A DNA stretch of 64,000 bases from NCBI GenBank assembly GCA_943354045.1, contig CALRBF010000001.1, forward strand, positions 136,026-200,025, in the 5' to 3' direction. The notes under the pieces are model-generated. The model searched no databases. It saw only the letters and a program-made list of their open reading frames with translations, and was not told the origin of the DNA. The position numbers were made by a program, and so were the translations under genes. This document shows, piece after piece, positions 6,479 through 42,318 of the stretch (positions are counted from its first letter, which is position 1; every line of letters starts with the position of its first letter). This stretch comes from Parcubacteria group bacterium. GTDB taxonomy: Bacteria; Patescibacteriota; Minisyncoccia; SW-4-49-11.

Positions 6479-8404
6479 TTACTTCTCTACGGTAAGCTGA
6501 TCTTGTATATCACTAACTTGATTACTACTAGGAGTATCTATGTTACCAGATAAATCAATTCCTGTAAACACATCTTTTCCCGTATAACTTACTTTACTCA
6601 ACAAACTTGGCTCTTGTCCTAATTGATTCGGGGTAGGATTAATTGCAATTTGGAATACCGCCCTATAAAGTGGTCTCAATAATCCCGTATTAGCAGGGAC
6701 ATTACCAATATCCCAAATTATTTCTTTAGTTCTATCATTATAACTTAATTTTCCAAATCCATTATTAGTACTTTGCCCTGTCCAACTAATATTAGCCGGT
6801 AATGTAGCCTTCAAGACAACCCCTGAGACATCATTAGTTAAATTTTGTATTTCCCAATTGACCGTAAATGTCGTAGTCTGAGCTAATTTTAATGGAATAG
6901 GTCCATTATTAATAATAGAACTTGTGGAACTTTTGTAATAGATATTTGATTTTGGAATAAGTCTCGTAGCTAATTTGACTTCACTCGCATTACCTTGAAT
7001 AATTTTATTTACTCCAAGAGTTGTAGGGACTTCATCACTTTCAAAGGTAGCTTGAGTTTTAATGACATAATTAATATCTTGAAAATCATCAATAGGAATA
7101 ATGCGCTTTACTGGTACTGAAAAATTTATTGTCCCCTCTTCATTTGGGGCAAATGTCTTAAGTTGAGGCAAAGCATTTGCTCGCCAAATAATTGTATTGC
7201 TTCCAGAGTCAAAATCAGCTCCTAAAGCTTTTAATTTAGTTATATCCAACAAATTACTATCGAGCTTTACTTTCAATAATCCCTCACCTATTCTCACTTG
7301 GGTATTATTTCGAATAGTAACAGTATAATCCAGAGTTTCTCCTGCGGATACTATTCCTGAGATAGGACTTACTTTTTGTACAATACTCACATAAGGAGAC
7401 CCTAATTTGGTTGAATTTTGACTATTCGCATATAGTGTAAATGCTCCTTGCTTATTTTCTCCAATTTGAGCTTTGAGAATTTTTATTTCTTGATCAAGAC
7501 CTCCAAGATTTCCTATAACCGTAACACTATAGGATCCTTTTGCTTTTAGGATTGGTATAGTAAAGATATTTTTCTCATTGCCCGTAGCGGTAATATTAGA
7601 TGATACAAAAGCAAAAGTATCAGGATATTCTAAACGCAATTCTAAATCTTTTAAATCATTAGATCCCTTATTATTTACCGTCACCACATAATTAACCGTG
7701 TCTCCACTTACACTTTCAAGAGGCGACTGTATATCAACAATGACGGGACTATCTGCTATGGTGGTCGCAAATTCAGTTTTAGTATCAAAACTAGAGTTTA
7801 AAATACTTGGCTTATAATTTAATATTGCTTTAATAGTTTGTATACTTCCCTGCTCTCCTATTAATCGTCCCTTTATGGTGATTTCCCCCTTGGAACGAGG
7901 AGCTAATTCTCCTAGAGAATATTCTCTTATCTCTGATTTTTCTTGTCCTAAAATATTCAAAGAAGAATCTGTTAGAGCTTTTGGTAATTCAACTGTAATC
8001 TTAGCATTTTCCAAAGCAACGAGATTATCATTACGATATGTGAGTGTATAACTCAAATCTTCTCCCGCACTAACTTGAGATGACCCCTTTACCTCTAACA
8101 CCACTCTCTTATCAGAGAATCTCTGCTGATTAAGAGAATATACAAAACCAGCTATTCCTATTGTAACAAAGACTGATAAGGCAATTAGACTCCATAAAGT
8201 AATTTTCTTCTTATATTTTTGAAAGAATGTTTGATCTGCTATCTCAAAAGAAGTTAATGATGGAGCCTTAGCTTCATCTCGCTTAGCATAAACACTGTAG
8301 GGAGTATGTTGAGTACGCTCTTGATCTAATATTTCACGATCTTCTTTTTGATAAATTTGTTTTTCTATATCTTTTAATGCCATATTATTTTTAACAATAT
8401 ACAA
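6479..8404 (-). CDS. Membrane-anchored surface protein with three DUF11/CARDB-like beta-repeat domains
   Basis: About 70-aa cytoplasmic N-terminus, one TM helix (LWSLIALSVFVTIGIAGFVYSL), then repeated segments of the pattern AGE.L.YT.T..N.G.......V.L ... (for example SGDTVNYVVTVNNKGSNDLKDLELRLEYPDTF), typical of the 'conserved repeat domain'. Confidence 0.5.
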   Translation of the reverse strand: MYIVKNNMALKDIEKQIYQKEDREILDQERTQHTPYSVYAKRDEAKAPSLTSFEIADQTFFQKYKKKITLWSLIALSVFVTIGIAGFVYSLNQQRFSDKRVVLEVKGSSQVSAGEDLSYTLTYRNDNLVALENAKITVELPKALTDSSLNILGQEKSEIREYSLGELAPRSKGEITIKGRLIGEQGSIQTIKAILNYKPSILNSSFDTKTEFATTIADSPVIVDIQSPLESVSGDTVNYVVTVNNKGSNDLKDLELRLEYPDTFAFVSSNITATGNEKNIFTIPILKAKGSYSVTVIGNLGGLDQEIKILKAQIGENKQGAFTLYANSQNSTKLGSPYVSIVQKVSPISGIVSAGETLDYTVTIRNNTQVRIGEGLLKVKLDSNLLDITKLKALGADFDSGSNTIIWRANALPQLKTFAPNEEGTINFSVPVKRIIPIDDFQDINYVIKTQATFESDEVPTTLGVNKIIQGNASEVKLATRLIPKSNIYYKSSTSSIINNGPIPLKLAQTTTFTVNWEIQNLTNDVSGVVLKATLPANISWTGQSTNNGFGKLSYNDRTKEIIWDIGNVPANTGLLRPLYRAVFQIAINPTPNQLGQEPSLLSKVSYTGKDVFTGIDLSGNIDTPSSNQVSDIQDQLTVEK

Positions 8405-9131: not shown

Positions 9132-10907
9132 TTATATTTCAATAATAACCGGTATAATCATTGGCCTTCTATGTGTAGTTCTGAATAAGAATAATCCCAA
9201 ATCTTCACGAATTGATTGTTGTATATATTCAATACTTTGATCCTCTCCATGAGACAATTTTTTCTCAATATGTTCTTGTACTCGAGATTGTATAGATTGT
9301 ATTAATTTGGTAGATGTTTGAATATGAACAAATCCTTTAGAGATAATTTCTGGTTCACGAATACATTTTCCTTGTTTAAAATCAACTAAAGCTACTATGG
9401 TCACAATACCATCTTGAGCCAAGGATTGCCTATCTCGAATTACAATTTCTTTTAAGTCACCTATTCCAAGCCCATCCACCATCATAGTGCTAGCATTGAC
9501 TTTTTCTGTAGTAACACGAGCCTCTCCTTTATATATCTCTATAATTCTTCCATTATCAGTAAGCAAGATATTATCCTTTTTCATACCCGCTTCAATCGCT
9601 AAATCACGATGAGATTTGAGTGAATAAAAATCTCCATAAATTGGTTGTAAATATTTGGGGCGAATTAAATCTAATAATTGTTTTAAATCATCACGTTGAG
9701 CATGTCCAGAAACATGTACTTCCATCATTTTATAATGAATAATATGTGCTCTTTGGCGAGCAATAGCATCTTTCACTTTTTGTACTGACTCCTCATTACC
9801 TGGTACAACCGAAGATGAAAATACAACGGTATCTCCCTTTTCAATATGAAAATTACGATGCTCTCGATTTGCCATACGAGTAAGAGCCGAGCGCTCATCT
9901 CCCTGAGCTCCTGTACAAATAATAGTAAGGTTTTCTGGAGGAATATTACGAGCCTCTTGTGCACTAATAACAGTTTGAGGAGAAAAATGTGCATATCCAA
10001 TTTCATGGAGAATTTGAACATTAGTTTTCATACTAAATCCCTCTATCACAACTTTACGATTATATTTTTCAGACAAATGAATCATTTGCTGTATACGATT
10101 CAGAGTACTAGAAAATGTAGTGACAATAATTTTACCCGTAGCATTTTCAAAAATATGATCAATATTATTTTGAATAGTCATCTCAGAAGTAACCCTACCA
10201 GAACGAGAAGCACTCGTACTATCAGATAATAATACTAATACTCCCTCATCACCAATTTTACGATACATTTCTAAATCAGCCGGCTCCTCTCCAACAGGAG
10301 TAGCATCTATTTTAAAATCACCAGTATGGAGTATAACTCCTTCTGGAGTTTCAATTTTAATCATAGTTGAATCAGGAATACTATGATTAATATGAAGGAA
10401 AGTTACGGTAAAAGCTCCAAATTTAAGCTTTTCATTTAATTTAGCTACTTTTCCATTTAATGGAGGTACGGTGGTAAATTCACTTTGACGTCTTTGCATC
10501 ATAGCAAGAGGCAAAGCAGGTGCATATATAGGAGGATTTCCAATCATAGACATAACCTGCGATACTCCTCCAATATGGTCCATATGACCATGAGTAATAA
10601 GAACAGCTCGAATATTATCCTCTTTTCCTTTAAGATAACTTGGATTAGGAATAATATAATCAACTCCTGGCTGATCTTCTTCTGGGAATTTCATCCCAAT
10701 ATCAATGACGAGAATATCTTTTCCATATTCTATTACCGTCATATTACGACCTCCAATTTCTTCTGATCCACCCAATGGAATGATTTTCAAAAGATTATCT
10801 TTAGTCTTAAATGGTTCTTTTGCATTAAGATACTCATTACTTTTATGACTTAAATCTGTCACAAAAGTTGTTCCTCTCTTAATTTCAGAGTGTTGATACG
10901 ATTTCAT
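9132..10907 (-). CDS. rnj: Ribonuclease J (canonical paralog)
   Basis: Metallo-beta-lactamase motif II is intact (LITHGHMDHIGG). The beta-CASP and C-terminal domain lengths fit RNase J (591 aa). Confidence 0.85.
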   Translation of the reverse strand: MKSYQHSEIKRGTTFVTDLSHKSNEYLNAKEPFKTKDNLLKIIPLGGSEEIGGRNMTVIEYGKDILVIDIGMKFPEEDQPGVDYIIPNPSYLKGKEDNIRAVLITHGHMDHIGGVSQVMSMIGNPPIYAPALPLAMMQRRQSEFTTVPPLNGKVAKLNEKLKFGAFTVTFLHINHSIPDSTMIKIETPEGVILHTGDFKIDATPVGEEPADLEMYRKIGDEGVLVLLSDSTSASRSGRVTSEMTIQNNIDHIFENATGKIIVTTFSSTLNRIQQMIHLSEKYNRKVVIEGFSMKTNVQILHEIGYAHFSPQTVISAQEARNIPPENLTIICTGAQGDERSALTRMANREHRNFHIEKGDTVVFSSSVVPGNEESVQKVKDAIARQRAHIIHYKMMEVHVSGHAQRDDLKQLLDLIRPKYLQPIYGDFYSLKSHRDLAIEAGMKKDNILLTDNGRIIEIYKGEARVTTEKVNASTMMVDGLGIGDLKEIVIRDRQSLAQDGIVTIVALVDFKQGKCIREPEIISKGFVHIQTSTKLIQSIQSRVQEHIEKKLSHGEDQSIEYIQQSIREDLGLFLFRTTHRRPMIIPVIIEI

Positions 10908-10908
10908 A

Positions 10909-12675
10909 TTAAATATTCATTATTATTGGTAAAATCATTGGTCTTCTTTCTGTCTTAGTAAGTAATAAGCGACCAATATTTTCTCTTACTTCATCTTGTA
11001 TATAAGCAATATTTACTTCATCAGATTGTTTCAAAAGAGCCAATACAATTAATCTTGTTTGTTCTTTTACTTCATTAAATAGTTTCTCTGAAGATTCATT
11101 ATCTACAAAGCCCTTAGACACAACTACAATATCTCCCAATATTTCGCGAGAATCAGCATTAAGCAATGTTACAATATGTAATATACCCTCTTCTGACATT
11201 GTTTGTCTATCATGTATAACTACATTAGTTAAATCACCTACGCCTAGACCATCTACTATTACATTGGAAGTTGGAACTTTTTCCGGAGTGATACGCCTTT
11301 GTTTATAATCAAATAGAATGACTTTTCCATTCATACCTATTATTACATTACGATCTGGATACCCTCCTTTAATCGCAATATCTCCCGTAGACCTCAATAA
11401 ATGATGAGAACCACTAATAGGCACATAATATTTAGGGCGAATTGCTTTTAATACAGCCAAACTATCCTCATATCTTGCATATGCAGCAAATCGTGTATCA
11501 AGTGGCTGATAATATTCCACAAAAGCTCCTAATTTTGCAAAATTATCATTTACTCGAGCAGCTGAGCGAGCATTACCTGGAATTAATGCTCCAGGATACA
11601 TCACAATATCTCCCTCTTTAATTGAGAAAACACTATGTTCATTATTAGCTAGTCTCATCAAATGAGGAATATCATCCCCATGAGAACCAGATATTAATAC
11701 TACTAACTGCTCTCTTGGAGTATCCCCAAGTAAACTAGGTCCCACTATAGTACCTGATTTAATTTGAATAAACCCCTTTTTGCGACATGTATTAAACGTA
11801 TTAAGTAAACTTTTTCCTTCAATAAATAAATGCTTATTATGAGCTTCTACTGCATTGACAATTTGTTGCATACGCCCAATCATAGATGGAAATGTAGATA
11901 CAAATACCGTACCCGTAGTACGAGCTATAACCGAGTCAATATGCTCAGCAATGGAAGCCTCCTTAGGAGTAAACCCTTGAGATTCTGTAGCAGAACTTCC
12001 AGATAAAAGAGCAAATGTATCAGCTCCCGCTAATTCCTTTATATAATCGAGAAATTCATTTTTTTCTCCTGATTCACTATCCAATTTATAGCTAGAGAGA
12101 TAAAATACCTTTCCTTGCATAGTATACACACATAATCCTATTGAACCCATCACATTAAATGGAGTTGGAAAAACATTCACTTTAAAGGATCCTACTCGTA
12201 TAGAATTATAAGGTTTGATAATATGTTTTTTGTATTTTACCCCTTGAGAATAAAAATCCTGACGAGATTCCAATATTGCAAATAAAGCCTCTGTTGCATA
12301 AATATGCAGATTAGGAAATAAATGTAAAAGATATGGTACAGCCCCAATATGATCGGGATGTGGGGACGTTAATACTACTCCCTTTATTTTGGAGCTATTA
12401 TCCATCAAATACTGCGTATTGGGGATAATATAATCAATTCCTGGTTGATTAGCACCAGGCATTTGAAGCCCCATATCGACAATCAGAATATCATTTTCTT
12501 GCTCAAATATATACATATTCTTACCAACACCATCAAGCCCCCCCAAAGGAATGATTTTGAGAGCTTGGCGTGAAGTTTCAGGAATAGTTCTTTTTTGAGC
12601 AAAACTTTTTCCTTGAGATCGAGAACGGTTATTCTTATTCTGTGAATTATTATTGTATGGTCGTTTTGATTGCAT
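10909..12675 (-). CDS. Ribonuclease J paralog with degenerate motif II and Asn/Lys-rich N-terminal extension
   Basis: Same architecture as the upstream gene, but motif II reads LTSPHPDHIG (S-P-H-P-D-H, not H-x-H-x-D-H). About 45 aa of basic low-complexity N-terminus (MQSKRPYNNNSQNKNNRSRSQGKS...). Confidence 0.75.
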   Translation of the reverse strand: MQSKRPYNNNSQNKNNRSRSQGKSFAQKRTIPETSRQALKIIPLGGLDGVGKNMYIFEQENDILIVDMGLQMPGANQPGIDYIIPNTQYLMDNSSKIKGVVLTSPHPDHIGAVPYLLHLFPNLHIYATEALFAILESRQDFYSQGVKYKKHIIKPYNSIRVGSFKVNVFPTPFNVMGSIGLCVYTMQGKVFYLSSYKLDSESGEKNEFLDYIKELAGADTFALLSGSSATESQGFTPKEASIAEHIDSVIARTTGTVFVSTFPSMIGRMQQIVNAVEAHNKHLFIEGKSLLNTFNTCRKKGFIQIKSGTIVGPSLLGDTPREQLVVLISGSHGDDIPHLMRLANNEHSVFSIKEGDIVMYPGALIPGNARSAARVNDNFAKLGAFVEYYQPLDTRFAAYARYEDSLAVLKAIRPKYYVPISGSHHLLRSTGDIAIKGGYPDRNVIIGMNGKVILFDYKQRRITPEKVPTSNVIVDGLGVGDLTNVVIHDRQTMSEEGILHIVTLLNADSREILGDIVVVSKGFVDNESSEKLFNEVKEQTRLIVLALLKQSDEVNIAYIQDEVRENIGRLLLTKTERRPMILPIIMNI

Positions 12676-13192: not shown

Positions 13193-14839
13193 CTATTGCG
13201 TAATACTTTGGAGCACTGTATTAGACAATCGTGTTGGCCAATAGGTTATACGTTTTATGCTGCCGTTTATTCGCTCCTGTCCACCAAAATCGTAATGTCC
13301 AACAGTTGCCATATTGACAGTTGGTAGTACTCCACTTGAATCTGTTTCTAATGCTACGCCCACTCTTTTTAGTGCAAAATCATTCGCCGCATAACCAAGT
13401 GCTACCTTGTTACCGCCGGGTGAACCAAAGATTGCTTGGACAGCGGATACCGAGACAACCGCCGTTTGTGCTGCGGCGTTTGAGAATTGAATCCGCTCTC
13501 CTGCGTCTGTGGATGCCCGAACGGTGATTGTTGCCCCGCCTCCAAGGACATTAGCTGTTTCTCCATAGAAAGTACCCCCCAACTGATTATACCAAGAGTT
13601 AAAATTAGTACCTGCTATTATTGTTGCACTATCTGCAAATCTTTGTACAGTAGCAGTCGTTGTAGGTATATAGGATGTAGCAAAAGCCCCTTGTTCTAAT
13701 TGAGCCCCCCATGCATAATAGCTATTCGTTGATGTAGAAGCTCCCCAAGTATCAAACCAAACTGACCCATTAGATTGTGTTAATACCGAATTCAAAGTAG
13801 CAGTTATGCTACAACGATACCAACCATTTCCTACATTTGTTATTGTTGCATTTGCAGCTGTTGCTGTCCCATTAACCGTAACTCCTCCAGATAATTGTCC
13901 CGTTGCAAGATTCAATAGCTGATTGGCTCCATTACCACCGGCAGCATCATCTATTCTTATTAATATTACAGATTGTGTATTAGCCTTCAGATAAACAGAA
14001 AACGTATAAGTCCCTATTGTAGATGTTGTAGCAGTTTTAGCCCAAACTTTAACATTACTAGTACTATTAGAACCAGTAACTATATCAGCATTTATACCTC
14101 CATCTGGAGAAGCAATTGTATTGGCTATTATAGCAACATTATTGAGGCTGGTACTAGCAGCTAAATCAGCTGATTGTAATAATAAATTTGTCCTCTGCTC
14201 CTCCACTAATAGCCCTAAACTCTCCCTGGTCACAGGATTATGATTAAACCTTGGTGCATTTACTGCTGCCGTCTTAATAAGTCCATCTGAGTCTACATAT
14301 GTTGCCGTAGGAGTAGTTTCTAAAACATTTCTTATAAAACTTATTGGATTAGTACCATTGACTGCATTGGTTAATTGTTTATCTCTTGCAAAGTTTAAAT
14401 CTAGGGTTGGTGCTACTGTTGTTCCTCCTGCTGCTGTTGCCAATATATTACTATTATCATATCCAGTACTTACTCCATTTACTGTCTTTGTCACTAAGTA
14501 TTGCCCTCTATCTGGTATGGGTATTCCTGCTATATAGTCACTTAATGCACTACTTAAATCTATTCCATTACTACATCCTGCTACTACACATAATCCTACT
14601 GTACTTCCTACTCCTACTCCTTGTAATGCTGGCGGATATACTCCCCTTTCTATAATATATTGTTGTATTGCCTTTGCTATTGCATTTTGATCTGATTTCC
14701 TCTTTGCTTCCCTTGCTGCTTCTATTTGTTTATTGGGGTTTATTGCAATTAATACTATTGCTGCTAATATACCTATTGCGGCAATCACCAATAATATCTC
14801 TAATAATGTAAATCCTTTCTTTTGTTTTCCTCCCCTCAT
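13193..14839 (-). CDS. Giant type IV pilin-like protein (prepilin N-terminus fused to large C-terminal domain), paralog 1
   Basis: Class III leader and N-terminal hydrophobic helix (MRGGKQKKG|FTLLEILLVIAAIGILAAIVLIAI). 548 aa. Shares conserved blocks with the 570-aa paralog at 18908..20620. Confidence 0.75.
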   Translation of the reverse strand: MRGGKQKKGFTLLEILLVIAAIGILAAIVLIAINPNKQIEAAREAKRKSDQNAIAKAIQQYIIERGVYPPALQGVGVGSTVGLCVVAGCSNGIDLSSALSDYIAGIPIPDRGQYLVTKTVNGVSTGYDNSNILATAAGGTTVAPTLDLNFARDKQLTNAVNGTNPISFIRNVLETTPTATYVDSDGLIKTAAVNAPRFNHNPVTRESLGLLVEEQRTNLLLQSADLAASTSLNNVAIIANTIASPDGGINADIVTGSNSTSNVKVWAKTATTSTIGTYTFSVYLKANTQSVILIRIDDAAGGNGANQLLNLATGQLSGGVTVNGTATAANATITNVGNGWYRCSITATLNSVLTQSNGSVWFDTWGASTSTNSYYAWGAQLEQGAFATSYIPTTTATVQRFADSATIIAGTNFNSWYNQLGGTFYGETANVLGGGATITVRASTDAGERIQFSNAAAQTAVVSVSAVQAIFGSPGGNKVALGYAANDFALKRVGVALETDSSGVLPTVNMATVGHYDFGGQERINGSIKRITYWPTRLSNTVLQSITQ

Positions 14840-18907: not shown

Positions 18908-20620
18908 TTATTTAGTGATATTAGTCAGAGTTGTATTGGATAATCGCGTCGGCCAGTAGGTTAATCGGGAGATTATACCATTAAGAGCATATGGTGGAGC
19001 TCCTCCAGTACCACTTCCAATATCTAATCTATCATGTGTAGCCATACCTGTGGCAGCTGTATTAGTTGTTATAGTTCCTATATTTCCATTAATACCTACA
19101 ATTAAATCTGAGCTATTAATTGCATATACAGATTTATATATGTTATTGCCTACTAAATAATTAAATGTCATCCCTGGAAATAATAATATTGGATTAGGAT
19201 TACGTGCAACACCCAAAAAAGATGTCGCATTTATAGCTCCTCTTAAAGCATAATTATTTTGATTTATAGCGGTATTATATACTTGGAATATATGTGGGGT
19301 ATTACTTGGAATTGCAGCAGTAGCAGTATAAATAGGAGAAAATTGACTAAACCAGGTTCCTGCTGCCTGATTATACCAACCTCCTCCTGAAGTTGTGGTA
19401 AAGTTTGTCCCCGTGATGCTCGCCACATCCGCGCTGCGGGTTACGGCGGCGGTGGTGGTAGGAATATATGAAGTTGGGAAAGCTCCTTGTTCTAGTTGAG
19501 CTCCCCAAATATAAACTTGAGAACCATTATAATTAGTACCATCATAATTACCTATACGAAATTGTGGTCTAAATGTAGTTTGTCCTGTAGGGATGGTATA
19601 AGTTGCAGAGACTCTATACCAATTATTACTATATGGTGTTATGGATGAAGCTGTAATATTAGTTCCTGTATTAATTGTACCTGATACTAAATTAATACTC
19701 ATAGAATAATTTAATCCCCAACCCTCTTGTACAATAGTGGCATTTTGCTGATTAATATATTTAACAAAAACTGAATATGTATATACTTGCCCTGTAGAAG
19801 CAGCTATCGTTTTTGCAACATTTGGATATAGCCCCGAAGCAGACATTAAAGTTCCTGTATTTGTACCATCCGGAGCTAAAGATTGGTTGGCAGTAGCAGA
19901 CATTGAGCCAGATTTTTCCCAATATACATTACTAATATCTGTACTATACAGCCATAAATTAGTTCTCTGCTCCTCAATCAATAGTCCTTGACTTGATTTT
20001 GTAATAGGATCATGAGTAAATCTTGGTGCATTTACTGTTGCGGTCTTAATAAGTCTATCTGAGTCTACATATGTTGCCGTAGGTGTACTTTCTACAATAT
20101 TACCTGGATTAGTTACTCTTGCAAAATTTATGGGATTAGTCCCATCAACTGCATTTACTAATTGTTTATCTCGGGCAAAGTTTAAATCTAATTTTGGAGC
20201 TGTAGTCCCAGCTGTTGCCCATATAGTACTACTATCATAGGCTGGTATAATCCCTGTCGCTGTTTTGGTTATAGTATATTGCCCCGTTTGAGGCAGAGGA
20301 ATAGCTGCTATATAAGGCGCTAAGTCAGTAGTCAAATCTATACCCCCTGTACAAGGGCTCGTCACACATAATCCTACCGTCCCTCCTGTTATCACAGATT
20401 GTAAGGCTGGTGGATATTTACCCCGATTATTGACTACATACTGTTCTATTGCCTTTGCAATAGCATCCATATCAGCTTTTCTTTTAACAGCTCTCCCGGC
20501 CTCTAATTGCTTATTAGGGTTAAGTACTACTAAACCTATTGCTGAAAATACACCAATAGCTGTGATTACTAATAATATTTCTATTAGGGTGAATCCTTTT
20601 TTCTTTTTATATATTATCAT
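18908..20620 (-). CDS. Giant type IV pilin-like protein, paralog 2
   Basis: Prepilin leader/helix MIIYKKKKG|FTLIEILLVITAIGVFSAIGLVVL. 570 aa. Conserved blocks shared with 13193..14839: LDLNFARDKQL.NAV.GTNPI.F, TPTATYVDSD.LIKTA.VNAPRF.H.P.T......GLL.EEQRTNL, IWGAQLEQGAF.TSYIPTTTA, R.TYWPTRLSNT.L. The blocks are separated by divergent segments. Confidence 0.75.
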   Translation of the reverse strand: MIIYKKKKGFTLIEILLVITAIGVFSAIGLVVLNPNKQLEAGRAVKRKADMDAIAKAIEQYVVNNRGKYPPALQSVITGGTVGLCVTSPCTGGIDLTTDLAPYIAAIPLPQTGQYTITKTATGIIPAYDSSTIWATAGTTAPKLDLNFARDKQLVNAVDGTNPINFARVTNPGNIVESTPTATYVDSDRLIKTATVNAPRFTHDPITKSSQGLLIEEQRTNLWLYSTDISNVYWEKSGSMSATANQSLAPDGTNTGTLMSASGLYPNVAKTIAASTGQVYTYSVFVKYINQQNATIVQEGWGLNYSMSINLVSGTINTGTNITASSITPYSNNWYRVSATYTIPTGQTTFRPQFRIGNYDGTNYNGSQVYIWGAQLEQGAFPTSYIPTTTAAVTRSADVASITGTNFTTTSGGGWYNQAAGTWFSQFSPIYTATAAIPSNTPHIFQVYNTAINQNNYALRGAINATSFLGVARNPNPILLFPGMTFNYLVGNNIYKSVYAINSSDLIVGINGNIGTITTNTAATGMATHDRLDIGSGTGGAPPYALNGIISRLTYWPTRLSNTTLTNITK

Positions 20621-33131: not shown

Positions 33132-34568
33132 ATGGTATTTAGCTCAATATTTTTTATCCTATTTTTCCTACCCGTTCTTATTATTGGATATTATCTTATC
33201 CATCCTAAATATCGTAATTTACTCCTTCTTATAGCAAGCTTATTATTTTATGTTGCAGGGGAAGCTAAATACAGTATAGTTTTATTAATTAGTATTTTTG
33301 CCAATTATATATTTGGTGCACTAATTGCACTATTTCAAAATAAAAATAATTCTCAAGGTGCAAAACTTATATTACTAGTATCCATAATCTTTAATATTGG
33401 TACATTAATTGTATTTAAATATGCCAATCTAATTGTAGATACTATTAATCCATTCTTACAATGGATTTTTTCTAATCAAATTAGTTTATCGCCTATTCAT
33501 CTACCTATTGGTATATCATTTTTCACTTTTCAAGCACTTTCATATGTAATTGATGTGTATAGGAGAGAAACTCGTTCTCAATTTAGTTTAATTAATTTTG
33601 CTATGTATATAGCATTATTTCCACAACTTATTGCTGGACCGATTGTAAGATATTTAGATATAGAAGATCAAATTCAAAACAGAAAACATTCCGTAAATCA
33701 TTTTACTGAAGGAATTACAATATTTATTATTGGACTTGCAAAAAAAGTATTAATTGCTAATAATGTTGCCCTTATTGCTGATCATATATTCTCATTACCC
33801 AGTCAAGAAATTGGATTTTCCTATGCTTGGATTGGAATCATAGCGTATAGTCTTCAAATATATTTTGATTTTTCTGGGTATTCTGATATGGCTGTGGGGC
33901 TTGGTAAAATGTTTGGATTTGATTTTGTTAAAAATTTCAATTATCCTTATATTTCTCAGTCCATACAAGATTTTTGGCGAAGATGGCATATTTCATTATC
34001 TACTTGGTTTCGAGATTATTTATATATTCCTTTGGGGGGTAATAGAAAAGGAGAAAAAAGAACATATATTAATTTGATTATTGTATTTGGTTTATGTGGA
34101 TTATGGCATGGAGCTAGTTGGGTGTTTTTATTATGGGGATTATGGCATGGAGCCTTTTTAATTATTGAAAGACTTCCCTATACAAAAAACCTAATTAACA
34201 AGTCACCTTTACTCATCAAATACCTTTATACTTTTTTAGTAGTAACTATTGGTTGGGTGTTTTTTAGAGCCGAGAATGTAACATTCGCAATACAATATTT
34301 AGAATCAATGTTTGGATTAAATGGGAATGCCTCACTCTCGACTTTACCAATAAATATTTATAATAATAAAACAATAGTATTTCTTATATTAGGAATTGCT
34401 GGAAGTATTCCGTTACTTCCCTATATTAAATCGAGAATATCCTCTATAAAATTATTAAAGAATATTCAATATCCTCTTTATTACACTTATACCATTATAA
34501 TATTATGTTTTTCTATATTAGCATTATCAAATAATGCATATAATCCATTCATATATTTTAGATTTTAA
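33132..34568 (+). CDS. MBOAT family membrane O-acyltransferase (DltB/AlgI/PatA-like)
   Basis: Polytopic, with the conserved-His region WHISLSTWFRDYLYIPLGGNR characteristic of MBOAT enzymes. Confidence 0.8.
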   Translation: MVFSSIFFILFFLPVLIIGYYLIHPKYRNLLLLIASLLFYVAGEAKYSIVLLISIFANYIFGALIALFQNKNNSQGAKLILLVSIIFNIGTLIVFKYANLIVDTINPFLQWIFSNQISLSPIHLPIGISFFTFQALSYVIDVYRRETRSQFSLINFAMYIALFPQLIAGPIVRYLDIEDQIQNRKHSVNHFTEGITIFIIGLAKKVLIANNVALIADHIFSLPSQEIGFSYAWIGIIAYSLQIYFDFSGYSDMAVGLGKMFGFDFVKNFNYPYISQSIQDFWRRWHISLSTWFRDYLYIPLGGNRKGEKRTYINLIIVFGLCGLWHGASWVFLLWGLWHGAFLIIERLPYTKNLINKSPLLIKYLYTFLVVTIGWVFFRAENVTFAIQYLESMFGLNGNASLSTLPINIYNNKTIVFLILGIAGSIPLLPYIKSRISSIKLLKNIQYPLYYTYTIIILCFSILALSNNAYNPFIYFRF

Positions 34569-34569
34569 T

Positions 34570-35691
34570 ATGAAAATATCTTTTAATTATATATATATTA
34601 CAAACATTATATTCATAGGAGTTTTTTTTCTCATTATTATAACTCCACTTATTTTAACTCTACTCAATCCTAATTCATCAACAAATATTGAAAATAAGAC
34701 ATTAGCTCAAAAACCTCCAGTTCAACTTATTCGAGAAGGTAAATTTGGTGAATATGTTAAAAATGGTGCTAAATATTTTGAAGATTCATATCAACTTAAA
34801 AGTAATCTCATAAATATTAACTCACTGATTGACTATTATGGTTTTAATATATCTCCTAAAGACTCCGTAACACTAGGAAAGGATCAATGGTTGTTTTATA
34901 CCGCTGAAGATGGAGTTAATATTCAAGATTATTATGGAAAAAAACTATTCCAAGAAAAAGATTTAGAAAATATATCAAAAGAAATAACTAATATAAAAAC
35001 AAAATTAGATAAAAGAAATATTCAGTTTATTATTATGATGACCCCTAATAAACATACTATTTATGAGGAATATTTACCTTCTCGTATTCGTAATCAAAAA
35101 GGAAGTCTTACTAGAGCCGATCAATATACTCCTATATTATCATCCCTCAATGTAAATTATATTGATCTTAGGAAAACACTATTAGATCAAAAATCTCAAT
35201 ACGCTTATCCATTATATTATTCCCTTGATAGCCATTGGAATGATAGGGCTGGACTCATTGCATATAATAAACTCCTTACAAAAATCAATCCACGTCCTTC
35301 AACAAAAATACCTGATATTACTATAGGTACTAAAAATCGCACTGGAGATTTAGGTAATATTATTGGACTTAGCCACAGACTCAAAGACACTTCTATTTCA
35401 GCAAATATACCTTCTCCCCCACTATACTCAACCAATATTACTAACACAAAAGAGATTAATCAAATTATCACTAAAAATCCCAATGGAGACCCAAGAAAAA
35501 TACTTATGTTTAAAGATTCATTTTCCGGAGCTTTATTACCATTTATGTCCTCCCAATTCTCAGAAGTACTTTATGATGCTAATCCTAAAGTAGATTTTAA
35601 CCTTATAGATGAATATAAACCCGATATTGTCATATTACAATTTGTAGAGAGATATTCTAATATTTTATTACAGAATGGAAATAAGTTTTAA
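34570..35691 (+). CDS. AlgX/AlgJ/PatB-like extracytoplasmic O-acetyltransferase partner (N-terminal anchor, SGNH-like fold)
   Basis: N-terminal TM anchor and a DSHW motif (SLDSHWNDRAGL), as in AlgJ/AlgX/PatB. It is immediately downstream of the MBOAT gene, and the start was placed at the internal ATG adjacent to the MBOAT stop. Confidence 0.5.
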   Translation: MKISFNYIYITNIIFIGVFFLIIITPLILTLLNPNSSTNIENKTLAQKPPVQLIREGKFGEYVKNGAKYFEDSYQLKSNLININSLIDYYGFNISPKDSVTLGKDQWLFYTAEDGVNIQDYYGKKLFQEKDLENISKEITNIKTKLDKRNIQFIIMMTPNKHTIYEEYLPSRIRNQKGSLTRADQYTPILSSLNVNYIDLRKTLLDQKSQYAYPLYYSLDSHWNDRAGLIAYNKLLTKINPRPSTKIPDITIGTKNRTGDLGNIIGLSHRLKDTSISANIPSPPLYSTNITNTKEINQIITKNPNGDPRKILMFKDSFSGALLPFMSSQFSEVLYDANPKVDFNLIDEYKPDIVILQFVERYSNILLQNGNKF

Positions 35692-38816: not shown

Positions 38817-38890
38817 GGATGTGTAGCTCAGCTGGTTAGAGCAGTCGTCTTATAAGCGACAGGTCGGTGGTTCAAGTCCACCCATATCCA
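38817..38890 (+). tRNA. tRNA-Ile with genomically encoded anticodon UAU (reads AUA)
   Basis: GGATGTG-TA-GCTC-AGCTGGTTA-GAGC-A-GTCGT-CTTATAA-GCGAC-AGGTC-GGTGG-TTCAAGT-CCACC-CATATCC-A. The D arm and T arm are near-identical to bacterial tRNA-Ile (AGCTGGTTAGAGC; AGGTCGGTGGTTCAAGTCCAC). The anticodon loop is CTTATAA. Confidence 0.75.
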
Positions 38891-38909
38891 CATCAATAGA
38901 TAACCCATT

Positions 38910-40545: not shown

Positions 40546-42318
40546 CTAGGTATATATAACTCTAGGATTATACTGTTCCAAACCATTTTCTTTGTCTAAG
40601 ACAGTAGCAATTTCTTCACTCAATTCTCTTAATCGTGCCTGTTTAGTATCAAAATCATCGGGTTTTTGATATTGCTCTATATATTCTTTTAATTTATTAA
40701 TTGCTTTAATAATAGAATCCTTATCTGTAAGTTCTGTTTGCTCTAGTTTACCTCTTATATATTCACTTTGACTATATCTTTTATTTAATTCAACTACTCT
40801 AGATGTGTTAATAGAAAATTTAGAATTTATTGTATGATATTGACTAATATATTGGTCTCGCTCAGTAATCCTTAATTTTATATTTTCTAAAATTGGGCTT
40901 AATCTAGATATAGCATCTTGATCTCTAGAGGGATTCCATCTTGATTTAGATTTATTCTGTTCTAGATAATCCTCTATTTCTCTCAGTTCCCCTACTTTCA
41001 TTTTTTTGCTTTCTGGTATTCTAAAATTACGAAGTGCTCTAATATTACTTATAGCTGATCCTAATCTATCTAATTCAGTATTTAGAGATGTACTACTATC
41101 TTCAACTTTATTTGATAATTCCTCTAAGGTTTTTTGATAATCTTCTTGTAATTCAAAACCTTTACCTGTTAATCTAACTTCACAAGTGACTTTTTCTAAT
41201 TCTTCTGATAATAAATTTAGATTTATATTATCAGAAGACCTATCTCTTTCTAAATGAGAAGCTTCTTGATATGATGGATCTCCTTTAATACCCCCTACTT
41301 CTTGTTCTAAAGTATTTTTACTATCTCTAAGTAAATTTAATTCCCTCTCTTTAGCGCCCCTAGCAAAATATTGAATAGATTGTTCAGTAGATTCTGAGCC
41401 GTTATACACCTTTGAATCTACTTTTAGCTTTTTAATTTGCTCCATTCCATCAACATACCCGTATAATTCAAAAATTTCTTCCAAATCTCTATCTGATATA
41501 TAGAATTCTGTTTCACCCCTTACTTCTCGTGTGACCTTAGTTTCAGATAATCTTTTTTCTAATTCTCCTTTAGCTCGCTCTAATAAAATAGGTTTATCAT
41601 TCTCTTCTGCTCCAGTTTCTGCATAACTTGCCTGAGATTCTGTTAATTGCGTATTCAATTCTTCTAGCCTAGTTTGTATAGCTGTCTGTACTTGATTTTC
41701 AGTTTCTTGATCAAAAGTTTGTAAATTTTGTGCTACCTGTAATAAGGAATCTTCATTAGCCTTAATTGCTGCACCAAATTGTGGTTTACTTCGTGCTTTC
41801 TCAGTAAATTCTTCGATTGACTCTGTACTTTTAGGATTAGTTGCTTTTAACTTATTATAAGCTTCCTTAATCATCTGTAAAAGTTGTAGTTGTATTCCTG
41901 ACAATTTTGTTTTTGTATTTTCCAAACTAATTCTAGACTCTTGTCTAGATTGTAAAATTTCATTTTGTATTGCGTCAAACGCTTCTCCCTGCCTACTTTC
42001 TAATTGCTGAATTTGAGATTTAATGTCCTGTATTTCTAAGCCTTGTTCTGATAATCCATCTTCATTTACTTCAAATGATGGTTTTGATTCTTTTATTCCT
42101 TGATCGACTAATTCATCCAAATCAAAATTTAAGGAATCTGGATCAAGTTCTGGCTCTCCCTCAATAGCAGGAGACTCTTTATCTTCTATAGTTTCTAGAC
42201 CTGCTTGTAATTTAGCTAATTCTTCAGGGGATAATTCTGTAGATGCAGCATTACCAGAAGAACCTGCACCACCCTCTTGTTCTGGAGCATATACTATTGA
42301 ATTCTCAAATAATCTCAT
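40546..42318 (-). CDS. Large acidic coiled-coil protein (hypothetical), encoded directly downstream of ftsA
   Basis: 590 aa, E/Q/L-rich with heptad character throughout. No TM segment, no tubulin (GGGTGSG) motif and no P-loop. It lies 9 bp downstream of ftsA on the same strand. Confidence 0.55.
   Translation of the reverse strand: MRLFENSIVYAPEQEGGAGSSGNAASTELSPEELAKLQAGLETIEDKESPAIEGEPELDPDSLNFDLDELVDQGIKESKPSFEVNEDGLSEQGLEIQDIKSQIQQLESRQGEAFDAIQNEILQSRQESRISLENTKTKLSGIQLQLLQMIKEAYNKLKATNPKSTESIEEFTEKARSKPQFGAAIKANEDSLLQVAQNLQTFDQETENQVQTAIQTRLEELNTQLTESQASYAETGAEENDKPILLERAKGELEKRLSETKVTREVRGETEFYISDRDLEEIFELYGYVDGMEQIKKLKVDSKVYNGSESTEQSIQYFARGAKERELNLLRDSKNTLEQEVGGIKGDPSYQEASHLERDRSSDNINLNLLSEELEKVTCEVRLTGKGFELQEDYQKTLEELSNKVEDSSTSLNTELDRLGSAISNIRALRNFRIPESKKMKVGELREIEDYLEQNKSKSRWNPSRDQDAISRLSPILENIKLRITERDQYISQYHTINSKFSINTSRVVELNKRYSQSEYIRGKLEQTELTDKDSIIKAINKLKEYIEQYQKPDDFDTKQARLRELSEEIATVLDKENGLEQYNPRVIYT

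What the first reader, a model, noticed from the sequence alone, without database searches (positions are those of the whole stretch)
13193..14839. Type IV pilin N-terminus fused to a ~500-aa C-terminal domain with tail-fibre-like conserved blocks
A textbook prepilin leader and helix (KKG|FTLLEILLVIAAIGILAAIV) is followed by a protein ten times the size of an ordinary pilin rather than a small pilin globule. From memory, the conserved blocks resemble N- and C-terminal blocks I associate with some prophage tail-fibre or host-specificity proteins; I could not verify this. The blocks are LDLNFARDKQL, ATYVDSDGLIKTAAVNAPRFNHNPVT..GLLVEEQRTNL and the C-terminal R.TYWPTRLSN..L. If a receptor-binding module is presented on a pilus stalk, it would be an adhesin strategy suited to an epibiotic, host-dependent cell. 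No pilB, pilC or pilT genes are in the window.
Basis: partly seen in the sequence, partly recalled or inferred. Interest (0 to 1): 0.7.

Follow-up and report, generated by a model that had tools for sequence, protein, structure and literature searches.

The report
Pilin fused to phage receptor-binding module
A tiny, probably host-dependent (CPR/Patescibacteria) bacterium encodes a pilus subunit whose tip end is a sugar-binding, cell-recognition module of the kind phages and gene transfer agents use to grab bacterial capsules, so it is probably a pilus-borne adhesin and a candidate determinant of which host cell the bacterium attaches to.

Summary
The ORF at 13193-14839 (minus strand, 548 aa) is real. 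It has a canonical prepilin leader (MRGGKQKKG|FTLLE), which scores above the Pfam and NCBIfam cut-offs, and a complete PilA-like pilin module (residues 1-~131). After a short flexible junction comes a ~405-aa module homologous to the RcGTA head-spike fibre Rcc01080 (PDB profile E=3e-49; NF048003 E=6e-37) and to phage "tail protein" PHROG 5939 (E=1e-70).

The module folds as two concanavalin-A/CBM-like beta-sandwiches. Viral relatives (>560 in IMG/VR) carry only a ~29-aa N-terminal anchor peptide where this protein has a pilin; none of 79 examined has a prepilin motif. Among 80 reference-genome loci, only five, all from Patescibacteria, have the fusion.

The source genome holds at least 4 dispersed copies in housekeeping contexts, including a second at 18908-20620. 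The family shows cassette mosaicism: identical stalks carry unrelated heads. In a syntenic relative the gene is 36% identical while its neighbours are 60-86% identical. The 3' third of this gene has anomalously high GC, and its closest relatives are phage proteins from the same sampling project.

This is a modular type IV pilin, a known kind, with a phage/GTA-type lectin head not previously described. Pilus display and glycan binding are inferred, not shown.

The parts
14813..14839 (-). Class III (prepilin) leader peptide, residues 1-9 MRGGKQKKG. Predicted cleavage is after Gly9, leaving Phe as residue +1.
   Evidence: Sequence. Pfam N_methyl 25.8 bits (cut-off 21.2). TIGR02532 28.4 bits (cut-off 16.3).
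14645..14812 (-). Mature pilin alpha1 helix, residues 10-65 (FTLLEILLVIAAIGILAAIV..., with Glu at +5). This is the polymerisation stalk.
   Evidence: AF2 helix 12-65 at pLDDT about 80-90. PDB profile hits to geopilin, PilA and GspG. Column conservation 0.72-0.88.
14447..14644 (-). Small pilin globular domain, residues 66-131, a 4-stranded sheet containing the Cys84/Cys88 pair.
   Evidence: AF2 strands 80-84, 92-94, 113-119 and 122-128. Stand-alone Patescibacteria PilA-type pilins align over 70-96% of residues 1-140. The T2SSG Pfam family hits the equivalent region of the L009 homologue.
14411..14446 (-). Low-complexity Ala/Gly/Thr junction, residues 132-143 (..ILATAAGGTTVAP). This is the fusion point between pilin and module.
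   Evidence: pLDDT below 50. All 79 viral matches and the non-pilin genomic matches begin at query residue about 131-146. Mosaic breakpoints map here.
14180..14410 (-). Conserved neck, residues 144-220 (LDLNFARDKQL ... PRFNHNPVT..SLGLLVEEQRTNLL). It is shared by the phage, GTA and pilin forms.
   Evidence: Invariant and near-invariant columns. Conservation 0.59-0.87. Aligned to Rcc01080 residues 42 onward. pLDDT is low in both models, which is unexplained.
13640..14179 (-). Beta-sandwich 1, residues 221-400. The body is hypervariable (221-376) and the closing seam is conserved (WGAQLEQGAFATSYIPT).
13196..13639 (-). Beta-sandwich 2 and C-terminal tail, residues 401-548. The body is variable (421-520) and the tail is conserved (NGSIKRITYWPTRLSNTVLQSITQ). 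GC is anomalous from about codon 376.
   Evidence: pLDDT 80-95 in the module-only model. Whole-module Foldseek matches to viral 'Concanavalin A-like lectin/glucanase' proteins. The closest relatives, at 68-73% identity, are non-pilin virus-type proteins. GC is 0.48-0.50, above all 1307 background windows.
18908..20620 (-). Second paralogue with the same architecture (570 aa; leader MIIYKKKKG|FTLIE), lying between ZnuA and DUF218.
   Evidence: tblastn 43.5% identity over residues 5-548. Pfam N_methyl 24.8 bits. Its module's nearest relatives are pilin-fused proteins at 60-95% identity.

Best explanation
The gene encodes a modular type IV pilin of a Patescibacteria (CPR) bacterium.

Shown by sequence and structure analysis: a complete PilA-like prepilin (leader, alpha1 helix with Phe+1 and Glu+5, small alpha-beta head) is joined by a short flexible Ala/Gly/Thr junction to a complete copy of a module that is widespread in phages and GTAs. 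The module consists of a conserved neck and two concanavalin-A/CBM-like beta-sandwiches. In viruses it sits behind a ~29-aa virion-anchor peptide. Its characterised member, the RcGTA head-spike fibre Rcc01080, binds capsular polysaccharide.

Inferred mechanism: the prepilin peptidase removes the 9-residue leader. The alpha1 helix is then inserted by the T4P machinery into a pilus, either at the tip or interspersed along the shaft. The Glu5 and the PilA-like head fit either position. The pilus presents the lectin head at a distance from the cell, where it binds surface glycans (capsule, wall polysaccharide or S-layer glycans) of a host or partner cell. Retraction or simple tethering then brings the cells together.

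The family behaves as a repertoire of specificity cassettes. The source genome holds at least 4 dispersed copies. Stalk, neck, seam and tail are conserved, and the two sandwich bodies are hypervariable. Whole heads are exchanged by recombination at the conserved neck. In this particular gene, the head segments appear to have been acquired fairly recently from phage-type genes.
For: Architecture:
- Searches give the prepilin domain plus NF048003, phrog_5939 and Rcc01080 homology.
- In the family alignment, 58 of 58 members hit GTA_spike_fiber and 44 hit the prepilin domain.

Fold:
- The pilin module has pLDDT 80-90 and sandwich 1 about 90. The module-only model has mean pLDDT 80.6.
- 123 viral predicted structures match, headed by 'Concanavalin A-like lectin/glucanase' entries.

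Anchor swap:
- The 79 viral relatives have a median length of 438 aa with a ~29-aa N-peptide, and none has a prepilin motif.
- In 80 reference-genome loci, only the five Patescibacteria loci have the pilin N-terminus.

Functional precedents:
- The RcGTA head fibre is one subunit per spike and binds capsule (PMC7296036).
- With its N-terminal anchor replaced by mNeonGreen, it still bound about 100% to capsulated cells and about 4% to capsule-less cells (PMC10218006).
- Modular pilins carrying adhesin modules are established: S. sanguinis PilB and PilC (PMC8179133), and the lectin-like PilX1/PilX2 of Saccharibacteria, with rhamnose-inhibitable host binding (PMC11623550).
- A Minisyncoccia homologue stacks a GLEYA/PA14 lectin domain behind the module.

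Specificity-determinant behaviour:
- In syntenic locus L166, 14 neighbouring genes are 60-86% identical and the fusion is 36% identical.
- Mosaicism: P0002 against P0006 has the pilin 100%, neck 96% and bodies 12% and 22% identical. P0004 against P0042 has the heads 100% and the pilin globule 28% identical.

The gene is not in a prophage. Its neighbours are rpsP, pyrG, rplI and RNase J, and the same housekeeping pattern holds for homologues.
Against: - No T4P assembly genes (pilB, C, D, M, T) are in the window or in the ~60 kb of additional flanks seen. That the genome has a pilus rests only on the literature statement that T4P genes are near-universal in CPR.
- No expression, processing, localisation or binding data exist for this family.
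- The ligand is unknown. A CBM-like fold does not prove glycan binding.
- The most conserved segment, the neck at 144-220, is poorly modelled, so part of the mechanism may be missing.
- The genes are solo and not in pilus operons, unlike TM7x pilX1 and pilX2.
- A class III signal peptide can also direct non-pilus surface assemblies.
Confidence: 0.62

Rival explanations
1. Bindosome-like or surface-anchored binding protein. Here the class III signal peptide and pilin module serve only for export and anchoring at the cell surface, as with the Sulfolobus sugar-binding proteins that carry prepilin-type signals. The lectin head would capture soluble or particulate polysaccharide, or hold the cell in a matrix, rather than act from an extended pilus as a host-recognition adhesin.
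For: The genes are solo and scattered among housekeeping genes, not in pilus operons. The structural neighbours are CBMs of glycan-degrading enzymes. No T4P machinery was seen nearby. The Sulfolobus bindosome precedent is from my own knowledge and was not checked here.
Against: The pilin part is a complete PilA-like module with Glu5 and a globular head, 42-56% identical to ordinary Patescibacteria pilins. That is more than an export signal would need. The hypervariable, mosaic, fast-evolving heads fit recognition of variable cell surfaces better than nutrient capture. No linked ABC sugar transporter is evident; the neighbouring ABC system is ZnuABC-type.
Confidence: 0.15
2. Pilus-borne glycan-degrading enzyme. 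Here the concanavalin-A-like sandwiches act as a glucanase or depolymerase that opens the host capsule or wall, rather than as a lectin.
For: The ConA-like lectin/glucanase superfamily includes GH16-type hydrolases. Viral look-alikes are annotated 'lectin/glucanases'. Two Glu residues are invariant, E213 and E382.
Confidence: 0.08
3. Degenerate prophage or GTA remnant. On this view it is a phage fibre gene whose hydrophobic N-terminus only mimics a prepilin signal, and it has no pilus role.
For: The module family is overwhelmingly viral: more than 560 IMG/VR relatives, with 22,544 representatives at E<=1e-10, most of them not pilin-fused. The 3' third of the gene has foreign-looking GC.
Against: There are no phage genes in the window. 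The pilin module is full length, confidently folded, and homologous to stand-alone pilins beyond the helix. At least 44 distinct intact homologues keep the same architecture. The locus is conserved in synteny. None of the 79 viral copies has a prepilin motif.
Confidence: 0.03
4. Competence or DNA-uptake pilus subunit, or a twitching-only structural minor pilin. On this view the large head has a structural or priming role comparable to PilY1 or GspK, not ligand recognition.
For: There are weak NCBIfam similarities to ComGC, ComGD, ComGE and GspG/GspH, limited to the N-terminal helix. CPR competence depends on T4P-related genes, according to the abstract of PMC10187176.
Against: All those hits are far below the family cut-offs and cover only the helix. 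A priming or cap role would predict a conserved head, one copy per system and operon linkage. The observed pattern is hypervariable heads, at least 4 copies and dispersed loci. Glu5 is present, whereas cap pilins such as GspK typically lack it (my own knowledge).
Confidence: 0.07

Closest known systems
RcGTA head-spike fibre Rcc01080 (NCBIfam NF048003 GTA_spike_fiber; PDB 6TB9/6TBA/6TSU/6TUI)
   Same: The two are homologous over neck and sandwich 1: profile E=3.3e-49, query 160-396 against chain 42-278, and NF048003 at 127.9 bits against a cut-off of 36. Both are beta-rich, lectin-like heads attached to a carrier only through the N-terminus. Rcc01080 is one subunit per spike and binds capsular polysaccharide. 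It keeps binding when its N-terminal anchor is replaced by another protein.
   Different: The 10-residue (I/L)-G-L anchor that plugs into the pentameric spike base is replaced here by a 131-residue pilin. No spike-base or capsid genes are nearby. Rcc01080 is 325 aa, and only residues 42-278 of it aligned. The window protein has a second sandwich plus the YWPTRLSN tail at 401-548, outside the aligned region. No binding data exist for the window protein.
Viral ~438-aa head-fibre/'tail protein' family (PHROG 5939; IMG/VR relatives such as L085; cyanomyovirus S-WAM2/S-CAM4 'tail protein')
   Same: The whole module 144-548 is shared at 35-46% identity. It has the same neck, seam and C-terminal tail motifs and the same two-sandwich fold.
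   Different: The viral proteins have a ~29-aa N-peptide and no prepilin motif in any of 79 examined. They sit in virion structural modules: between the major head protein and the head-tail adaptor in L085, and between head-completion and tail-tube genes in the lambda-like L170.
Modular type IV pilins: Streptococcus sanguinis PilB (vWA) and PilC (concanavalin-A-like lectin) (PMC8179133, PMC9934059)
   Same: The design is the same: a small pilin module, a short linker and a bulky adhesin module. The PilC module belongs to the same ConA-like lectin/glucanase superfamily. Such pilins are proposed to be tip-exposed, and the architecture class is described as widespread, including in CPR phyla.
   Different: No sequence relationship to PilB or PilC was detected. 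The module here is of phage/GTA type and was not among the architectures listed, because it had no InterPro or Pfam signature; Pfam still has none. Here the genes are multi-copy, dispersed and mosaic, not single genes in a pil operon.
Nanosynbacter lyticus TM7x minor pilins PilX1 (beta-jelly-roll) and PilX2 (beta-propeller) (PMC11623550)
   Same: These are CPR pilins with large C-terminal lectin-like domains implicated in host binding. The PilX1 domain is a jelly roll resembling CBMs, lectins and capsid proteins.
   Different: [quoted passage not shown] The window protein has a canonical one and lies outside any pil locus.
Pseudomonas phage E217 gp45 / Pa193 gp46 (baseplate 'triplex'/wedge subunit; PDB 8ENV, 9B45)
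   Different: In those phages the domain is part of a baseplate wedge protein that anchors the tail fibre. No receptor-binding role is described for it.
PilY1/PilC tip adhesins and CofB/TcpB-type large minor pilins
   Same: The functional logic is the same: a carrier for pilus-tip presentation joined to a variable effector or adhesin domain (discussion in PMC8179133).
   Different: PilY1 is not a pilin; it docks through a beta-propeller onto a minor-pilin complex. CofB is reported to form a trimer at the pilus tip. Neither has any sequence or fold relationship to the module here.

Membership tests
Type IV pilin / class III signal peptide protein | Short basic leader ending in Gly, then Phe(+1), Glu(+5) and about 20 hydrophobic residues (N_methyl / TIGR02532 motif) | tested here: met
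   The sequence is MRGGKQKKG|FTLLEILLVIAAIGILAAIV. PF07963 scores 25.8 bits against a gathering score of 21.2. TIGR02532 scores 28.4 against 16.3.
Type IV pilin / class III signal peptide protein | Alpha-beta pilin fold: a long alpha1 helix packed on an antiparallel sheet | tested here: met
   AF2 predicts helix 12-65 plus four strands up to residue 128 at pLDDT 80-90. Residues 1-140 align over 70-96% of their length to 140-200-aa PilA-type pilins at 42-56% identity.
Type IV pilin / class III signal peptide protein | Cleavage and N-methylation by a prepilin peptidase, and assembly by a T4P machinery encoded in the same genome | not testable with these tools
   No pilB, C, D, M or T is in the 64-kb window or in the flanks seen. 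The literature states that T4P genes are near-universal in CPR.
Modular pilin sensu Raynaud et al. 2021 | N-terminal pilin module plus an additional domain that is not specific to T4P biology, joined by a short linker | tested here: met
   The pilin occupies 1-131, an Ala/Gly/Thr junction 132-143, and the phage/GTA module 144-548. The definition is from PMC8179133.
NF048003 GTA_spike_fiber domain family | HMM score above NCBI's curated cut-off | tested here: met
   127.9 bits against a cut-off of 36, residues 211-400 covering profile positions 1-180 of 182. All 58 aligned family members hit the model.
GTA/phage head-spike fibre (functional family of Rcc01080) | Short N-terminal anchor peptide that binds a pentameric spike-base protein on the capsid, with an adjacent spike-base or capsid gene | tested here: not met
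   The N-terminus is a prepilin, not an (I/L)-G-L repeat (compare). The neighbours are pyrG and rpsP, and there are no virion genes in the window.
GTA/phage head-spike fibre (functional family of Rcc01080) | Binding to capsular or cell-surface polysaccharide | not testable with these tools
Classical phage tail fibre / tailspike | Homotrimeric fibrous shaft (coiled coil, beta-helix or triple beta-spiral) with an N-terminal baseplate or tail adaptor domain, often with a chaperone | tested here: not met
   The model shows two globular beta-sandwiches and no fibrous repeat or coiled coil. The characterised homologues occur as single copies per complex. The closest viral relative is encoded in the head block. 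Oligomeric state itself could not be predicted here.
DGR (diversity-generating retroelement) target protein | C-type-lectin-fold variable region with a nearby template repeat and reverse transcriptase | tested here: not met
   There is no second DNA copy of any head segment in the window other than the paralogue at about 70% identity, and no RT-like motif ORF. The fold is ConA/CBM-like, not CLec. Only the 64-kb window was examined.

The most novel reading that the evidence does not exclude
CPR epibionts may build their pilus adhesin repertoire by capturing ready-made receptor-binding cassettes from phages in their community, possibly phages that infect the epibiont's own host. They would graft these cassettes onto a pilin stalk at a conserved neck that acts as a recombination handle. 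If so, the pilin heads would report host range, and the host of an uncultivated CPR bacterium could be predicted from the host of the phage carrying the closest head cassette.

The evidence does not exclude this:
- In this gene, body 1 is closest to non-pilin proteins (53-56% identity) and body 2 to virus-type proteins (68-73%), while the pilin-fused paralogues are only 10-28% identical there.
- The 3' third has GC 0.48-0.50, above all 1307 background windows. The same domain in paralogue 2 has ordinary GC of 0.30-0.35.
- One body-2 relative sits in a lambda-like phage contig of 60.7% GC from the same sampling project, with 68% nucleotide identity over 338 nt.

The direction of transfer, the identity of the phage's host, and whether this is common are all open. 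Paralogue 2 looks vertically inherited.
Probability: 0.22. Interest if true: 0.85.

Novelty: new variant of a known kind. Interest (0 to 1): 0.58.

Why it matters
How ultrasmall CPR/Patescibacteria cells recognise and attach to their hosts is largely unknown outside a few cultivated Saccharibacteria, and for most lineages the host itself is unknown.

This family supplies a concrete, sequence-recognisable candidate for the specificity determinant. It is a pilin stalk carrying a phage/GTA-type lectin head. It is present in several copies per sub-megabase genome, it evolves far faster than its neighbours, and it is shuffled as cassettes.

It links two fields. Phage receptor-binding-protein evolution works by mosaic, anchor-swappable modules. 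Type IV pilus biology has modular pilins. Here one module family appears to serve on capsids, on baseplates and, by inference, on pili.

Practically, it suggests experiments. The module can be expressed alone, as was done for Rcc01080 fused to a fluorescent protein, to stain environmental cells and identify partners. If the phage-capture reading holds, it also gives a bioinformatic route to predicting CPR hosts.

If the heads turn out to be ordinary CBMs used for matrix attachment, the finding is a tidy but unsurprising addition to the catalogue of modular pilins.

Tried and rejected
- **Prophage or GTA locus.** Rejected: every neighbour is a housekeeping gene, and no viral copy has a pilin N-terminus.
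- **Gene conversion or silent-cassette (pilE/pilS-like) system, or a DGR, in the window.** The two paralogues share only about 70% DNA identity over the 5' 660 nt. There are no other copies and no RT-like ORF. Not supported within 64 kb.
- **Own promoter or terminator signals.** A 10/12 promoter-like site lies just upstream (14904-14876), but the number of sites in the region equals the shuffled expectation (38 against 38.7). This is not evidence.
- **T4P genes near homologues.** Seven neighbourhoods were inspected and none had them. L165 has TrwB/TraG-type T4SS genes only.
- **Exact-sequence look-up of P0042** found nothing.
- **The AFDB50 fold library** was unavailable.
- **Homology to TM7x PilX1** could not be tested because no sequence was available. 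Nor could the identity of the 'tail fibre-like protein' said to co-localise with the CPR Pam pilus operon.
- **Generality of the 'heads come from phages' pattern.** This was tested on paralogue 2 and not confirmed. Its nearest relatives are other pilin fusions at 60-63% identity.
- **Taxon of the window.** No reference genome holds this exact gene; the best match is 43%, in Candidatus Paceibacterota. The assignment to Patescibacteria (Paceibacteria/Minisyncoccia-like) is by nearest relatives only.
Full report
**Observation.** The window contains a 548-aa ORF at 13193..14839 on the minus strand. The prepilin motif is significant: Pfam N_methyl scores 25.8 bits against a gathering score of 21.2, and NCBIfam TIGR02532 scores 28.4 bits against a cut-off of 16.3. 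The quoted blocks coincide with the invariant and near-invariant columns of a 58-member family alignment. The protein is about 3.5-4 times the size of an ordinary pilin, not ten times. The non-pilin part is about 405 aa.

**Surroundings.** The window has 33.7% GC and is a run of core genes: gltX-like, TGT, recO, two RNase J genes, rpsP, pyrG, rplI, an M50 protease, znuABC, a two-component system, tpiA, uppP, a 2-oxoacid:ferredoxin oxidoreductase, ftsH, ftsA, hisS, lepB, parAB, gyrB, mreB, relA/spoT, murA and a Mur ligase. It holds four tRNAs. The finding's gene sits between pyrG and rpsP on the same strand, with about 70-nt gaps. Promoter and terminator pattern scans are at chance level and say nothing.

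**What the protein is made of.**
- *Residues 1-131* form a complete pilin. AF2 predicts the alpha1 helix (12-65) and a four-stranded sheet at pLDDT 80-90. Residues 1-140 alone retrieve stand-alone 140-200-aa PilA-type pilins from Minisyncoccia, Parcubacteria, Portnoybacteria and other Patescibacteria. These align over 70-96% of the query at 42-56% identity.
- *Residues 132-143* are an Ala/Gly/Thr junction.
- *Residues 144-548* match PHROG 5939 'tail protein' (E=1e-70, profile positions 351-762 of 801) and NCBIfam NF048003 'GTA_spike_fiber' (E=6e-37).
- A family profile hits the Rhodobacter capsulatus GTA head-spike fibre Rcc01080 at E=3.3e-49. It also hits Pseudomonas phage E217 gp45 and Pa193 gp46 (E about 4e-22) and a tail fibre gp17.
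- Pfam has no model for this module.
- Against predicted viral structures there are 123 matches at E<=1e-3. The best cover about 380-420 columns and are annotated 'Concanavalin A-like lectin/glucanases superfamily' or 'tail fiber protein'.

The fold is a lectin-type globular head rather than a fibrous shaft.

**An anchor swap.** The module family is very large. An exhaustive search finds 22,544 representatives at E<=1e-10, and only about 22 of the best 150 cover the pilin N-terminus. IMG/VR holds more than 560 relatives. In all of the best 79, the match starts at query residue about 131-146. Their ORFs have a median length of 438 aa with only a ~29-aa peptide before the LDLNFA block, and none has a prepilin motif.

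In the closest viral relative (L085, 46% identity) the gene order is: terminase, portal, scaffold, major head protein, two small ORFs, the fibre, head morphogenesis, head-tail adaptor, major tail, tape measure. This is a head-block position, matching the Rcc01080 homology. In annotated phages the full module occurs in T4-like cyanophages. Its first sandwich occurs in RcapMu and in Rhizobium and Klebsiella phage tail proteins.

In one genome per species of GTDB, 152 relatives were found. Of the best 80, only five have the prepilin N-terminus, and all five are Patescibacteria: two in a Candidatus Paceibacterota MAG, one Saccharibacteria, one Minisyncoccia and one 'uncultured bacterium'. In the family alignment, 58 of 58 members hit GTA_spike_fiber and 44 hit the prepilin domain. 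The architecture is therefore a complete Patescibacteria pilin in place of the short virion anchor of a complete phage/GTA module.

**Why the fusion should work.** In RcGTA each head spike carries a single fibre subunit. It is held only by its N-terminal residues 2-10, and the flexible remainder binds the capsule (PMC7296036). When residues 1-10 were replaced by mNeonGreen, the protein bound about 100% to capsulated cells and about 4% to a capsule-less mutant (PMC10218006). So the characterised homologue works as a single subunit and tolerates replacement of its N-terminal carrier. By inference, the module here could be presented in the same way by a pilin.

Modular pilins, in which a small pilin is joined by a linker to a bulky adhesin module, are established. 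Examples are S. sanguinis PilB (vWA) and PilC (ConA-like lectin), with over 1,200 examples in InterPro, many from CPR phyla (PMC8179133). In Saccharibacteria, lectin-like minor pilins and host wall polysaccharides are implicated in host binding (PMC11623550). A Minisyncoccia member of the present family (L009, 717 aa) adds a GLEYA/PA14 lectin domain behind the module (E=8.5e-21 and 9e-18), which again points to glycan adhesion.

**Behaviour as a specificity repertoire.**
- *Copy number and context.* The source contig (425 kb) carries at least four copies: the two in the window, P0045 between G6PD and ruvC, and P0057. A further close relative (P0002) lies at a RuvB/aaRS locus in the same project. 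Homologues elsewhere are likewise solo genes inside ribosomal or housekeeping neighbourhoods.
- *Conservation pattern.* Column conservation among 45 pilin-fused members is high in the stalk (0.72-0.88), neck (0.59-0.87), seam (0.65-0.74) and C-terminal tail (0.62-0.69). It is low in the two sandwich bodies (0.27-0.44).
- *Rate of change.* In the syntenic locus L166, 14 flanking orthologues are 60-86% identical to the window's, but the gene between pyrG and rpsP is 36% identical. The second window paralogue is absent there.
- *Mosaicism.* P0002 and P0006 have 100% identical pilin modules and 96% identical necks, but their bodies are 12% and 22% identical. P0004 and P0042 have 100% identical heads on pilin globules that are 28% identical.
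- *Assembly.* Two members assemble as about 1.74-kb contigs that hold only the gene.
- *Mechanism of variation.* No silent cassettes, template repeats or reverse-transcriptase-like ORFs are in the window.

**A possible recent phage contribution to this gene.**
- *Closest relatives by segment.* The pilin part of the finding's gene is closest to other pilin fusions (90-92%). Body 1 is closest to non-pilin proteins (53-56%), and body 2 to a different set of virus-type proteins (68-73%). Pilin-fused paralogues are only 10-28% identical in both bodies.
- *Composition.* Codons 376-548 have GC 0.48-0.50. This is higher than every one of 1,307 background 300-nt windows from the other genes of the window (maximum 0.483). 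GC3 there is 0.33-0.36, in the top 1%.
- *Co-occurring phages.* One body-2 relative (P0032) is encoded in a lambda-like siphovirus contig of 60.7% GC from the same sampling project (GROS21-1). It shares 68% nucleotide identity over 338 nt with the window gene. A body-1 relative (P0025) is on a 34.5% GC phage-like contig from the same project.
- *Control.* The module of paralogue 2 is closest to other pilin fusions (60-63%), and its 3' end has ordinary GC of 0.30-0.35. So the anomaly is not a property of the domain family, and the pattern is not general.
- *Reading.* This suggests occasional capture of head segments from phage-type genes. The direction of transfer and its frequency are not established.

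**Most likely mechanism, marked by status.**
- *Shown:* the architecture, its homology, its fold class, its restriction to Patescibacteria, its copy number, and its mosaic and fast evolution.
- *Inferred from established pilin biology:* leader removal by a prepilin peptidase and incorporation into a type IV pilus through alpha1. Tip or shaft position is undetermined, since Glu5 and a PilA-like head are compatible with either.
- *Inferred from the homologue and the fold:* binding of cell-surface polysaccharide on a partner cell.
- *Not testable here:* whether the genome has the pilus machinery. None is in the ~125 kb seen, and the literature says T4P genes are near-universal in CPR.
- *Confidence:* about 0.62 in the pilus-borne glycan adhesin model. 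Rivals are a bindosome-like surface binding protein (0.15), a pilus-borne glycanase (0.08), a structural or competence minor pilin (0.07) and a phage remnant (0.03).

**Comparison with known systems and novelty.** The protein meets the definition of a modular type IV pilin and carries a bona fide NF048003 domain. It does not qualify as a GTA/phage head-spike fibre, because it lacks the anchor peptide, a spike base and a virion context. It does not qualify as a classical trimeric tail fibre, because no fibrous shaft is predicted. Full-text searches found no paper describing a pilin fused to this phage/GTA module. The nearest concepts are the lectin-bearing modular pilins of S. sanguinis and TM7x. 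I rate it a new variant of a known kind. The open and more novel possibility is that CPR cells borrow phage receptor-binding cassettes for host recognition. I give that about 0.22 probability.

**Unexplained.** The neck (144-220) is the most conserved part of the family in every context, yet it is modelled with pLDDT below 50 in both predictions.

Noticed in passing
L033, L039, L042, L046, L047, L055, L056, L074 (genome-contig loci; e.g. L047 5635-7212): The same module follows a Sec-type signal peptide and a ~100-aa 'IPFTVNMSEAV..TPRIAVDVGG..RYATY' domain with no Pfam hit, instead of a pilin or a phage anchor. The hosts are Micavibrio, Pseudobdellovibrionaceae and related Alphaproteobacteria MAGs. 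There are several copies per genome (5 or more loci in one Micavibrio MAG). This may be an independent cellular co-option by predatory or epibiotic bacteria.
   Followed up: partly
L020 and L035 (Oligoflexia MAG); P0121, P0123, P0168: Giant proteins of 2,600-6,800 aa carry one to nine copies of the module. In Oligoflexia it sits behind long Ig-like repeat regions.
   Followed up: no
L009 1329-3482 (Minisyncoccia MAG): A 717-aa pilin fusion carries an extra C-terminal GLEYA/PA14 lectin domain (Pfam E=8.5e-21 and 9e-18). Its pilin head also hits the T2SSG family.
   Followed up: yes
window 40546-42318 (-): A 590-aa ORF lies immediately downstream of ftsA (42328-43590), where ftsZ is usually found. 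It has no Pfam hit at E<=0.01.
   Followed up: no
window 6479-8404 (-): A 641-aa DUF11/CLIPPER-repeat protein, likely a cell-surface protein, is conserved in position in the syntenic relative L166 at 69% identity.
   Followed up: no
window 33132-35691 (+): An adjacent MBOAT (AlgI-like) and AlgX-type SGNH acetyltransferase pair suggests O-acylation of a surface polysaccharide.
   Followed up: no
L168 (P0006) and L169 (P0057), contigs of 1737 and 1746 bp: Two family members assemble as contigs that hold only the gene. The assembly apparently breaks at the conserved gene ends, which fits multi-copy or strain-variable loci.
   Followed up: partly
L171 4663-6993 (ENA GROS21-1 contig, GC 0.345): A low-GC phage-like contig from the same project as the window encodes a 776-aa two-module relative whose first body is the closest type to the window gene's body 1. 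It may be a phage of a low-GC, CPR-like host.
   Followed up: no
window 13196-14410 (residues 144-220 especially): The neck segment is invariant across phage, GTA and pilin forms but gets pLDDT below 50 in both AF2 models. Its role is unknown; it might contact a partner, wrap the sandwiches, or serve as a recombination handle.
   Followed up: partly
window 9132-12675 (-): There are two tandem RNase J paralogues (591 and 588 aa), conserved as a pair in the syntenic relative L166.
   Followed up: no
window 38817-38891 (+): ARAGORN calls a tRNA-Ile with anticodon TAT.
   Followed up: no
literature: bioRxiv 10.64898/2026.03.03.709456: A preprint on the CPR 'Pam' donor-strand pilus reports a 'tail fibre-like protein' consistently co-localised with the pam operon across CPR lineages. 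Whether it belongs to the module family described here is unknown.
   Followed up: no
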